IMG/VR virus record: IMGVR_UViG_648276671_000006
Coordinates: 1 to 6,300 of that record
Origin: a virus
Lineage: Duplodnaviria; Heunggongvirae; Uroviricota; Caudoviricetes
Length of the DNA stretch: 6,300 nt
Reading direction: 5' to 3' (one strand)
The notes under the pieces are model-generated. The model did not search any database. It was not told the DNA's origin and worked only from the letters and a program-made list of their open reading frames with translations. The translations under genes were made by a program, and so were the position numbers. Position 1 is the first letter of the stretch, and every line of letters begins with the position of its first letter. Positions 931 to 1,730 of this stretch are shown piece by piece.

Positions 931-957
931 GCAATAAAAAACCCGCCGAAGCGGGTT
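931..957 (-). terminator. rho-independent terminator of the hok transcript
   Basis: On the minus strand: AACCCGC-UUCG-GCGGGUU (plus 940..957) followed by UUUUAUUGC. GC-rich 7-bp stem with a UUCG tetraloop and U-run. Confidence 0.7.
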
Positions 958-960
958 AAG

Positions 961-1018
961 TGCGGGTGCGTTGAGGATGCCTGACACATCAGAGGTGGCG
1001 AGGGATTTCTCCCTCGCC
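961..1018 (-). promoter_or_regulatory. hok mRNA 3' elements: fbi-like box (961..976) and a perfect 9-bp hairpin (997..1018)
   Basis: The transcript here reads CCUCAACGCACCCGCA, complementary with one bulged C to the predicted 5' end UGCGGGUGCUUGAGG (1330..1316). GGCGAGGGA/UCCCUCGCC hairpin with a 4-nt loop sits just 3' of the hok stop. Confidence 0.5.
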
Positions 1019-1025
1019 TGGTCTC

Positions 1026-1181
1026 TTACTCCTCAGGTTCGTAAGCTGTGAAGACAGCGACCTCCGTCTGGCCGGTTCGGATTCGTACCTCGCAGAGGTC
1101 TTTCCTCGTTACCAGTGCCGTCACTATGACGGTTAAACAGATGACGATCAGGGCGATTAACATCGCCTTTTGCTGCTTCAT
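1026..1181 (-). CDS. hok: Hok/Gef-family type I toxin (51 aa, MKQQKAMLIALIVICLTVIVTALVTRKDLCEVRIRTGQTEVAVFTAYEPEE)
   Basis: Single hydrophobic transmembrane segment followed by the conserved RKxLCE.R...GxxEVAAF-like tail of Hok/Gef peptides. From memory it is closest to chromosomal HokD/RelF. ATG at 1181..1179 with AAGGAG 9 nt upstream. The 70-aa track ORF 1026..1238 is an in-frame N-terminal extension. Confidence 0.85.
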   Translation of the reverse strand: MKQQKAMLIALIVICLTVIVTALVTRKDLCEVRIRTGQTEVAVFTAYEPEE

Positions 1182-1227
1182 AGCCTGCTTCTCCTTGACC
1201 TTTCGGTCCGTAAGAGGCAATCTATAT

Positions 1228-1290
1228 GTGACGAGCATATAGGGGCCTCACTTCGATTTATAGTCGGGTGGGGCTTTTCTCTATCTGCCT
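1228..1290 (+). ncRNA. expected position of a Sok-like antisense RNA (approximate, not firmly located)
   Basis: By analogy with hok/sok loci, the antisense RNA should cover the leader-ORF SD (plus 1246..1251) and ATG (1236..1238). Plus-strand signals are weak: TTGACC (1195..1200), 17 nt, CAATCT; possible 3' stem 1245..1251/1268..1274 followed by TTTTCTCT. It may be degenerate. Confidence 0.2.
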
Positions 1291-1315
1291 TTGGTGGCAT
1301 GCCCGAGACAGATAG

Positions 1316-1361
1316 CCTCAAGCACCCGCAGCAATTCTACTTAACTCTCCTTTTCCCGCAA
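1316..1361 (-). promoter_or_regulatory. hok promoter and 5' tac-like box
   Basis: On the minus strand: TTGCGG (1361..1356), 16 nt, TAGAAT (1339..1334). Predicted start near 1328, giving a transcript of about 390 nt whose first 15 nt are complementary to 976..961. Confidence 0.45.
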
Positions 1362-1448
1362 ACCGTTTTTATCCCCATCGGCAAATCGAATACACCACCA
1401 GCGCCACCGCCAGTGCGATTCCTACCGTTGTGAATGCTTCAGGGCAGG

Positions 1449-1730
1449 TCATCGCAAAACATCCTCCGCGCTTATCAGTTCGTTCCGCTTCAGGTAGTCC
1501 ATCGCCTTCTCCGGTAATTTGCAGTCTGGATTAGCTTTTTTCAGTTGACTGACCAGTCGTTTAACCCACATTGTTAATTCGCCAACTTGGTTACTGGATG
1601 CTAATGGATTGTCGGCTTTACCCAGAATGACAGCACAGCAGGCCTCTTTGAGAACCCAATCAACAGCATCTTTCCATACTCCTGTTTCGACTGGTGGATT
1701 CTCACGCTTTACCTGTTCATAAAAGCGCAC
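1449..1730 (-). CDS. hypothetical protein (93 aa, VRFYEQVKRENPPVETGVWKDAVDWVLKEACCAVILGKADNPLASSNQVGELTMWVKRLVSQLKKANPDCKLPEKAMDYLKRNELISAEDVLR)
   Basis: Protein-like composition. The only start available is GTG at 1730..1728, with no convincing SD; it overlaps the upstream gene by 22 nt, so translation may be coupled. No in-frame ATG before residue 54. Confidence 0.5.
   Translation of the reverse strand: MRFYEQVKRENPPVETGVWKDAVDWVLKEACCAVILGKADNPLASSNQVGELTMWVKRLVSQLKKANPDCKLPEKAMDYLKRNELISAEDVLR

What the first reader, a model, noticed from the sequence alone, without database searches (positions are those of the whole stretch)
1178..1300. Two alternative leader ORFs for coupling hok translation
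Translation could reach hok by two routes. (a) An in-frame 19-codon extension from the ATG at 1238 (SD GUGAGG 7 nt upstream) would give a 70-aa protein. (b) A 40-codon ORF in another frame (ATG 1300..1298, MPPKADREKPHPTINRSEAPICSSHIDCLLRTERSRRSRL) ends in TGA overlapping the hok ATG as ATGA. Either could act as the mok-type leader reading frame.
Basis: seen in the sequence. Interest (0 to 1): 0.4.

Follow-up and report, generated by a model that had tools for sequence, protein, structure and literature searches.

The report
Prophage hok leader: mok real, second ORF chance
This is an ordinary, complete hok/mok/sok toxin-antitoxin locus in a lambda-like prophage: the in-frame upstream start is the known mok leader, arranged as in E. 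coli K-12 mokC, and the second proposed leader ORF is an accident of this one allele.

Summary
ORF (a) starts at ATG 1238, with GUGAGG 7 nt upstream, and runs in frame with hok to give 70 aa. It is the mok homologue. It aligns base for base with the K-12 mokC start, and RefSeq annotates mokC as a 19-codon in-frame extension of hokC. The identical 70-aa protein is on about 1000 public contigs. The GAGG-N7-ATG start is kept 56-58 nt upstream of hok in all 56 distinct leaders I aligned, from Escherichia, Kluyvera, Photorhabdus, Pantoea and plasmids including R1. The predicted Sok antisense RNA (+ strand, about 1230-1284) covers this start.

ORF (b) runs from ATG 1300 to the TGA at 1180-1178. It has no Shine-Dalgarno sequence and sits in the apical loop of the 5' hairpin, outside the Sok target. 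In the nearest relatives it is broken by a 1-nt indel or by stop codons, and in hokC the ATG is ATT. The ATGA overlap follows from Hok beginning Met-Lys.

One modest addition came out of the survey. Relatives use all three frames from the same mok start: 45 in frame, 8 at -58, and 3 at -56 that end at the ATGA. The leader peptide shows no protein-level selection. The kind is already known and interest is low.

The parts
1334..1361 (-). Putative hok mRNA promoter: -35 TTGCGG 1361-1356, 16-nt spacer, -10 TAGAAT 1339-1334. Weak.
   Evidence: Read from the sequence. It is conserved in close relatives. It falls below the threshold of the consensus scan. Inferred, not shown.
936..1327 (-). Predicted full-length hok mRNA, about 390 nt: 5' end by homology at G1327, 3' end at the intrinsic terminator.
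   Evidence: Rfam RF01794 matches 1327-1179 at 108 bits, E 1.3e-24. Terminator stem 957-940 plus a T run. Fold -165.7 kcal/mol, z = -7.8.
1316..1327 (-). tac element at the 5' end (GGGUGCUUGAGG). It pairs with fbi in the full-length RNA and with ucb after 3' trimming.
   Evidence: Predicted pair tables.
964..976 (-). fbi element near the 3' end (CCUCAACGCACCC), complementary to tac.
   Evidence: 12 predicted base pairs, 1327-1316 with 964-976.
1281..1315 (-). 5' hairpin of the hok leader. Its apical loop holds ATG 1300-1298, the start of ORF (b).
   Evidence: The stem is conserved and the loop is variable among relatives.
1178..1300 (-). ORF (b): 40 codons plus TGA. An allele-specific chance ORF, not a leader.
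1267..1276 (-). ucb (anti-SD of mok). It pairs with the mok SD in the full-length fold and with tac in the truncated fold.
   Evidence: Matches the R1 model described in PMC9841398.
1246..1251 (-). mok Shine-Dalgarno sequence GUGAGG, with an invariant GAGG core.
   Evidence: GAGG is invariant in 56/56 aligned leaders.
1026..1238 (-). mok-type leader reading frame, ORF (a): ATG 1238, 19 codons, then in frame through hok to give 70 aa.
1230..1284 (+). Predicted Sok-type antisense RNA, about 55 nt. Its 5' tail is complementary to the mok AUG and codons 2-3. Stem-loop followed by a U-rich end.
   Evidence: Positional homology to annotated K-12 sokC 16952..17010. Fold -20.4 kcal/mol, z = -3.7. Transcription not shown.
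1195..1223 (+). Putative Sok promoter: -35 TTGACC 1195-1200, whose TTG is the complement of the CAA just 5' of the hok SD AAGGAG; 17-nt spacer; weak -10 CAATCT 1218-1223.
   Evidence: Read from the sequence. It is aligned with the region upstream of K-12 sokC. Missed by the consensus scan. Inferred.
1210..1218 (-). GCCUCUUAC element (dcb / anti-SD) inside mok codons 7-10. It can pair either with the mok SD or with the hok SD.
   Evidence: Nearly invariant in 56 leaders. RNAalifold finds a 5-bp stem with the mok SD. Single-sequence folds pair it with the hok SD region.
1190..1196 (-). hok Shine-Dalgarno sequence AAGGAGA. It is enclosed in a hairpin whose inner stem (1208-1205 with 1200-1197) covaries among relatives.
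1026..1181 (-). hok toxin gene, 51 aa, a Hok/Gef family member.
   Evidence: PF01848, E 2.9e-23. PHROG 251. The matching genes in related E. coli records are annotated hokD.

Best explanation
The window carries a complete hok/mok/sok type I toxin-antitoxin locus on the minus strand, inside the early region of a lambda-like prophage. ORF (a) is the mok leader frame.

The mechanism below is taken from plasmid R1 hok/sok, and the sequence features here fit it.
1. A stable mRNA of about 390 nt is made. It is held inert by pairing of its 5' end (tac) with its 3' end (fbi), and the mok SD is paired to an upstream box (ucb).
2. Slow 3' trimming removes fbi. tac then pairs with ucb, and the mok SD moves into a hairpin with GCCUC (dcb).
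3. This form is either bound by the cis-antisense Sok RNA across the mok start and destroyed, or, if Sok is gone, translated from the mok AUG at 1238.
4. Ribosomes reading the 19 leader codons pass through GCCUCUUAC and open the hairpin that encloses the hok SD, so hok (ATG 1181) is translated.

Because mok is in frame with hok here, every ribosome that starts at 1238 must also make a 70-aa N-extended Hok.

Shown here: the ORFs, the SDs, homology to mokC/sokC, conservation, and the predicted pairings. Inferred: transcription start sites, RNA processing, Sok expression, translational coupling and toxicity.

ORF (b) has no role.
For: - Homology to annotated genes. The ATG at 1238 aligns with the K-12 mokC start. 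mokC (16751..16960) and hokC (16751..16903) share a stop, so mokC is a 19-codon in-frame extension. sokC (16952..17010) overlaps that start.
- Family matches. Rfam sok/hok-leader model, 108 bits against a gathering score of 59. Pfam HOK_GEF, 2.9e-23.
- Public records. The exact 70-aa protein is on about 999 contigs. A phage record annotates the homologous 213-nt CDS as 'gef, phage maintenance protein'.
- Conservation. GAGG plus ATG lies at -57, -58 or -56 in 45, 8 and 3 of 56 distinct leaders.
- Selection. Codon-position entropy is flat in the 19-codon extension (0.73/0.77/0.73). In hok it is 0.33/0.22/0.77. So translation of the leader is what is conserved, not its peptide.
- Structure. The folds reproduce the tac:fbi and SD:ucb pairings in the full-length RNA, and tac:ucb and SD:dcb in the truncated RNA. 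The hairpin around the hok SD is kept with different inner stems: GACC/GGUC, UGCC/GGCA, GCU/AGC, GCGC/GCGC.
- Literature. In R1, mok start-codon mutations, and stop codons upstream of hok, abolish toxicity, while stops downstream of the hok start do not (PMC9841398). The 51-aa HokW with sokW in prophage Sp5 is a working toxin-antitoxin pair (PMC8621323).
Against: - There are no expression data for this locus.
- Both promoters are weak matches, and the consensus scan found none.
- The Sok -10 (CAATCT) matches only 2 of 6 consensus positions.
- According to the bioRxiv survey 10.1101/2025.08.07.668861, the chromosomal hokA, hokB and hokC loci that were tested did not mediate post-segregational killing. 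This copy may therefore be regulated differently or be silent.
- The predicted MFE structures are models, and the GCCUCUU element has two competing partners.
Confidence: 0.9

Rival explanations
1. ORF (b), ATG 1300 to TGA 1180-1178, is a second functional leader. It delivers ribosomes to the hok start by termination and reinitiation at AUGA, and it escapes Sok because its start lies outside the antisense target.
For: - The ORF is intact in this allele, and its stop overlaps the hok AUG.
- The AUG is unpaired in a 7-nt apical loop in the predicted folds.
- An AUGA-terminated leader is a workable design, because 3 of 56 relatives end their mok frame there.
Against: - There is no SD upstream (CUGUCUCGGGC-AUG).
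- The AUG is flanked by a 10-12-bp stem.
- Nearest relatives have ATGAACACC, which gives a stop after 6 codons in L020 and CM2010 and after 14 in the closest E. coli genome.
- The frame carries TAG or TAA in L020, L033, L071, L081, L142 and CM2010.
- hokC and more distant leaders have ATT or other triplets at that position.
- Three viral contigs with the identical loop give ORFs of 20, 20 and 89 codons.
- No exact match exists in 5,426 E. coli genomes.
- An ORF of this length is expected by chance.
Confidence: 0.03
2. Only the hok ATG at 1181 is used. The upstream in-frame ATG is an untranslated remnant, and Sok acts some other way.
For: - hok has its own good SD, AAGGAG, 9 nt upstream.
- K-12 hokD (relF) lacks the leader altogether yet encodes a toxic peptide (established knowledge).
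- The 51-aa HokW alone is toxic when expressed from a plasmid (PMC8621323).
Against: - The Sok-homologous region (1230-1284) is more than 30 nt away from the hok SD and AUG, and covers the mok start instead.
- GAGG-N7-ATG is conserved at a fixed distance in 56 of 56 leaders spanning several genera.
- The hok SD is enclosed in a conserved hairpin.
- In R1, mutating the mok start or SD abolishes Hok production (PMC9841398).
Confidence: 0.05
3. The 70-aa ORF is the true single toxin gene, as several records annotate it, and the internal ATG 1181 is not a separate start.
For: - Gene callers and some records annotate the 70-aa CDS.
- In an in-frame locus the long form must be made whenever 1238 is used.
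Against: - The coding signature (third-position variability) begins only at the hok ATG. The extension shows none.
- An invariant SD precedes ATG 1181.
- 11 of 56 relatives have the leader out of frame and cannot make a fusion.
- RefSeq annotates hokC and hokD as 50-51 aa.
Confidence: 0.05

Closest known systems
E. coli K-12 hokC/mokC/sokC (formerly gef, with leader orf69 and antisense sof)
   Same: - Same architecture, and the leader is alignable base for base.
- mok starts at the aligned ATG, 57 nt upstream, in frame with hok. It gives 69 aa in K-12 and 70 aa here.
- Same SD core, same GCCUCUUAC element, same hok SD.
- The antisense gene overlaps the mok start.
   Different: - The toxin here has the HokD/RelF-type sequence (MKQQKAMLIALI...EPEE) and sits in a lambda-like prophage.
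- Leader peptide: MLVTYRLPLTDRKVKEKQA here, MLNTCRVPLTDRKVKEKRA in K-12.
- K-12 hokC has IS186 inserted about 20 bp downstream of the hokC stop.
E. coli K-12 hokD (relF) in the Qin prophage
   Same: The part that matches the K-12 record is 98.8% identical at the DNA level, and the matching gene there is annotated hokD. The prophage neighbourhood is of the same kind (dicA/dicC ... gef ... rem ... ydfU in the related phage record).
   Different: The K-12 match covers only 46% of the query, positions 266-524, so it starts about 14 nt before the hok ATG. The mok/sok leader and the hok promoter are absent there. The window holds the complete locus.
hok/mok/sok of plasmid R1 (the paradigm)
   Same: - GAGG-N7-AUG mok start, GCCUCUUAC element, hok SD hairpin, tac/fbi/ucb/dcb logic, and an mRNA of roughly 390-400 nt (PMC9841398).
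   Different: - R1 mok starts 58 nt upstream, so it is in the +1 frame. It has 70 codons and ends 4 nt before the hok stop.
- Hok identity is only 42%.
- R1 is plasmid-borne, with demonstrated post-segregational killing.
hokW-sokW of Sakai prophage Sp5 (E. coli O157:H7)
   Same: A hok locus borne by a lambda-like prophage, encoding a 51-aa Hok. It was tested experimentally as a toxin-antitoxin pair (PMC8621323). PHROG 251 'MokW-like host killing' matches residues 20-69 of the 70-aa ORF.
   Different: I did not align hokW itself, so its leader frame was not checked here.

Membership tests
hok/mok/sok type I toxin-antitoxin locus | Toxin ORF of about 50 aa in the Hok/Gef family | tested here: met
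   PF01848, E 2.9e-23, 81.6 bits against a cutoff of 22. 51 aa.
hok/mok/sok type I toxin-antitoxin locus | Leader reading frame (mok) with its own SD, starting about 57 nt upstream of hok and running at least to the hok start | tested here: met
   GUGAGG-N7-ATG at 1238, open through to hok. The position is conserved in 56 of 56 leaders.
hok/mok/sok type I toxin-antitoxin locus | cis-encoded antisense RNA (Sok) overlapping the mok translation initiation region | tested here: inconclusive
   The region is homologous to annotated sokC. It has a -35 TTGACC, a stem-loop and a U-rich end. The -10 is weak, and transcription cannot be tested with these tools.
hok/mok/sok type I toxin-antitoxin locus | Long-range 5'-3' pairing (tac-fbi) that locks the full-length mRNA | tested here: met
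   12 predicted pairs, 1327-1316 with 964-976, in an MFE fold with z = -7.8.
hok/mok/sok type I toxin-antitoxin locus | The mok SD switches between ucb (closed form) and dcb (open form) after 3' trimming | tested here: met
   Predicted in the full-length and truncated folds. The SD:dcb stem is invariant in 56 sequences. This is prediction only.
hok/mok/sok type I toxin-antitoxin locus | hok translation depends on mok translation; toxicity; post-segregational killing | not testable with these tools
   Supported indirectly by the conserved hairpin around the hok SD and by R1 genetics (PMC9841398).
mokC-type (in-frame) leader arrangement | The leader shares frame and stop with hok, as a 19-codon N-terminal extension | tested here: met
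   Window ORF 1238..1026 against hok 1181..1026. K-12 mokC and hokC share the stop at 16751. The start codons align.
ORF (b) as a mok-type leader | SD at a functional distance from the start codon | tested here: not met
   Upstream sequence is CUGUCUCGGGC, with no SD. The AUG lies in a hairpin loop.
ORF (b) as a mok-type leader | Start codon and open frame conserved among homologues | tested here: not met
   Frameshifted, stopped, or lacking the ATG in all relatives examined.
ORF (b) as a mok-type leader | Start region covered by the Sok antisense RNA | tested here: not met
   ATG 1300 lies 14 nt beyond the predicted Sok 3' end at 1284.

The most novel reading that the evidence does not exclude
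In in-frame loci such as this one and hokC, the obligatory 70-aa N-extended Hok made from the mok AUG is itself a significant toxic species. 'Coupling' would then be partly or wholly replaced by direct synthesis of a long proteoform. The -58 and -56 variants would be the only ones that rely purely on reinitiation or on melting of the SD hairpin. The natural spread of one conserved mok start over all three frames would make this directly testable by swapping single nucleotides.
Probability: 0.2. Interest if true: 0.35.

Novelty: already known. Interest (0 to 1): 0.12.

Why it matters
It matters little beyond annotation. The result settles which upstream ORF is the leader in this very common prophage hok allele. 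It also shows that the public 70-aa 'Hok family toxin' calls are mok-hok fusions, not a longer toxin.

The side result may help groups cataloguing hok loci. One conserved GAGG-N7-ATG start is used in all three frames, and the leader peptide shows no protein-level selection. A recent survey called the Mok coding sequence 'not trivial' to identify (bioRxiv 10.1101/2025.08.07.668861). The side result also gives a natural counterpart to the R1 stop-codon genetics.

Tried and rejected
A 5-sequence alignment worked.
- My first leader alignment (A5) used wrong minus-strand coordinates for K-12 hokB and hokC and included a leaderless relE-hokD type locus. I redid it as A6.
- RNAalifold on A6 returned only the invariant mok SD:GCCUC stem, with no covariation. 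Column-wise covariation of the hok-SD hairpin was not attempted, because MAFFT places a gap inside the inner stem. I used per-sequence folds instead.
- The sigma-70 consensus scan found no promoter. The promoters given in this report are read by homology and are weak.
- Literature searches for gefL/orf69/mokD and for ribosome-profiling evidence on mokC/mokB found nothing usable. The statement that gef is coupled to 'orf69' (Poulsen et al. 1991) rests on my memory only.
- The isrK and rsmX Rfam hits at 936-1023 are below their gathering scores. I rejected them as terminator and hairpin look-alikes.

Full report
**Observation.**
On the minus strand the window reads ...GAAGUGAGGCCCCUAUAUGCUCGUCACAUAUAGAUUGCCUCUUACGGACCGAAAGGUCAAGGAGAAGCAGGCUAUGAAGCAG.... 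The hok ATG is at 1181, and hok encodes 51 aa, MKQQKAMLIALIVICLTVIVTALVTRKDLCEVRIRTGQTEVAVFTAYEPEE. The matching genes in related E. coli records are annotated hokD.

ORF (a) starts at ATG 1238. It is in frame with hok with no stop between them, giving 70 aa, and GUGAGG lies exactly 7 nt upstream. ORF (b) starts at ATG 1300 and has 40 codons. Its TGA at 1180-1178 overlaps the hok ATG as ATGA. Both observations are accurate.

**What the locus is.**
- Rfam's sok/hok-leader model matches 1327-1179 at 108 bits, against a gathering score of 59.
- The toxin matches Pfam HOK_GEF at 2.9e-23.
- The 561-nt region has matches in 4,721 of 5,426 complete E. coli genomes.
- The surrounding genes are a lambda-like prophage early region: a cI-like HTH protein, YdaS/YdaT-like proteins, a replication protein with a DnaT-like domain in the position of lambda O, lambda P, and DUF1627.
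- Related phage records annotate the homologous 213-nt CDS as 'gef, phage maintenance protein'.

**ORF (a) is mok.**
In K-12 RefSeq, mokC (16751..16960) and hokC (16751..16903) share their stop. mokC is therefore a 19-codon in-frame extension of hokC, and sokC (16952..17010, opposite strand) overlaps the mokC start. In a DNA alignment the mokC ATG falls exactly on window ATG 1238, within the shared CCUAUAUGCU motif. The identical 70-aa protein is in the public collection on about 999 contigs.

I collected 80 viral-contig loci, 49 loci from species-representative genomes, four plasmid loci including R1-type hok, and K-12 hokB and hokA. Among 56 distinct leaders, GAGG is invariant. An ATG 7-9 nt downstream of it lies 57, 58 or 56 nt before the hok ATG in 45, 8 and 3 sequences respectively.
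- The -58 class includes R1 mok (70 codons, ending 4 nt before the hok stop) and K-12 mokB.
- The -56 class ends after 19 codons at the TGA of the ATGA at the hok start.
- Each class spans more than one genus, or both plasmid and chromosome. This suggests the frame changed more than once.

So the start site is conserved and the frame is not.

**The leader peptide is not selected as a protein.**
Among the 45 in-frame leaders, mean column entropy is the same at codon positions 1, 2 and 3 (0.73, 0.77, 0.73). In the hok CDS of the same loci it is 0.33, 0.22 and 0.77, the usual coding pattern. This agrees with the R1 literature. [quoted passage not shown] Stop codons in mok upstream of the hok start abolish toxicity, and those downstream do not (PMC9841398).

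**RNA features fit the R1 mechanism.**
In the full-length fold (1327-938; -165.7 kcal/mol; z = -7.8):
- the 5' end, 1327-1316, pairs with 964-976 (tac:fbi);
- the mok SD pairs with 1268-1273 (ucb);
- the hok SD, GGAG 1193-1190, pairs with UCUU 1215-1212 inside mok codons 8-9.

With 42 nt removed from the 3' end, tac pairs with 1270-1276 (ucb). In the centroid structure the mok SD pairs with GCCUC 1218-1214 (dcb). RNAalifold on the 56 leaders finds the same 5-bp SD:dcb stem, which is invariant.

Per-sequence folds show that GCCUCUU closes a hairpin around the hok SD in the different lineages. The inner stems differ but stay paired: GACC/GGUC, UGCC/GGCA, GCU/AGC, GCGC/GCGC.

By homology to sokC, the antisense RNA would run on the + strand from about 1230 to 1284. 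Its -35 is TTGACC (1195-1200) and its -10 is a weak CAATCT. It folds into a stem-loop with a U-rich tail (z = -3.7) and has a 5' tail complementary to the mok AUG. The promoters, RNA ends, processing, coupling and toxicity are inferred, not shown.

**ORF (b) is a chance ORF.**
- Its ATG sits in the 7-nt apical loop of the conserved 5' hairpin, has no SD (CUGUCUCGGGC-AUG), and lies 14 nt beyond the predicted Sok 3' end.
- The nearest relatives read GGCATGAACACC instead of GGCATGCCACC. That ATG is then followed by TAG after 6 codons (L020, CM2010), or by TAA after 14 codons in the closest E. coli genome, which is 97.8% identical.
- Translating frame (b) in relatives gives in-frame stops: PTADR*KPH in L020, L071, L081 and L142 (PKADR*KPH in L033), and APIC*THID in CM2010.
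- K-12 hokC and more distant leaders have ATT or other triplets at that position.
- Three viral contigs that share the exact ATGCCACC loop give ORFs of 20, 20 and 89 codons from that ATG.
- No complete E. coli genome has this leader at 99% identity or above over its full length. The 56-nt hairpin has no exact match in 5,426 genomes.
- A 40-codon ORF is unremarkable. The window has 33 of them against 21 +/- 4 in shuffles, and P(39 open codons) is about 0.15.
- The ATGA is a by-product of Hok starting Met-Lys.

**Consequence of the in-frame arrangement.**
Any ribosome starting at 1238 cannot terminate before the hok stop. A 70-aa N-extended Hok is therefore an obligatory product whenever the leader is translated. 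Whether that long form is toxic cannot be decided here. It is the only part of this locus that I regard as open.

**Comparison and verdict.**
The closest known system is K-12 hokC/mokC/sokC, which has the same in-frame arrangement. K-12 hokD (relF) matches the hok gene and its 3' region at 98.8% identity, but the match starts about 14 nt before the hok ATG, so the leader is absent there. R1 hok/sok is the mechanistic paradigm, with mok in the +1 frame. hokW-sokW of prophage Sp5 is an experimentally tested prophage-borne relative (PMC8621323).

The finding is an already known kind of element.

Noticed in passing
window 1369-1452 (-): A 27-aa hydrophobic ORF, MTCPEAFTTVGIALAVALVVYSICRWG. Its ATG overlaps the TGA of the upstream 93-aa ORF (1449-1730) as ATGA. 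Intact homologues sit upstream of hok in more than 30 fetched loci, including versions only 55-59% identical (MNWPEAFAITGVAMAIAFLVYVICRWG). Two loci have a stop at codon 3. It is not annotated in the RefSeq records inspected and has no Pfam or PHROG family. It is probably a real, unannotated small membrane protein of lambda-like prophages.
   Followed up: partly
window 1179-1327 (-): The Rfam family named 'sok antitoxin' (RF01794) matches the hok-mRNA strand and ends at the hok AUG. In practice it models the hok leader, not the antisense strand. The hit's strand should not be read as the orientation of Sok.
   Followed up: partly
L004, L014, L040, L080 (viral contigs), L098, L126; hok ATG at 701 in each: A natural class of hok loci in which a 1-nt shorter spacer puts the canonical mok ATG at -56. 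The 19-codon leader then ends at the TGA of the ATGA at the hok start, the classic termination-reinitiation layout. The class is seen in Escherichia-type prophage contigs, a soil MAG and Pantoea.
   Followed up: yes
window 936-1017 (-): The hok 3' UTR with its terminator gives a sub-threshold Rfam hit to isrK (31 bits against a gathering score of 50). It probably reflects only the two-hairpin-plus-terminator shape.
   Followed up: no
window 1195-1200 (+) / 1190-1196 (-): The putative Sok -35 hexamer TTGACC abuts the complement of the hok SD: CUCCUUGACC on the + strand is the reverse complement of GGUCAAGGAG. The invariant CAAGGAG motif may therefore be constrained from both strands.
   Followed up: partly
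L092 (MAG labelled Veillonella parvula), L099 (Acinetobacter idrijaensis), L101 (Xanthomonas pisi): hok loci 96-100% identical to E. coli Hok appear on short contigs of assemblies labelled as non-enterobacterial species. These are most likely contamination or binning errors, not real host range.
   Followed up: no
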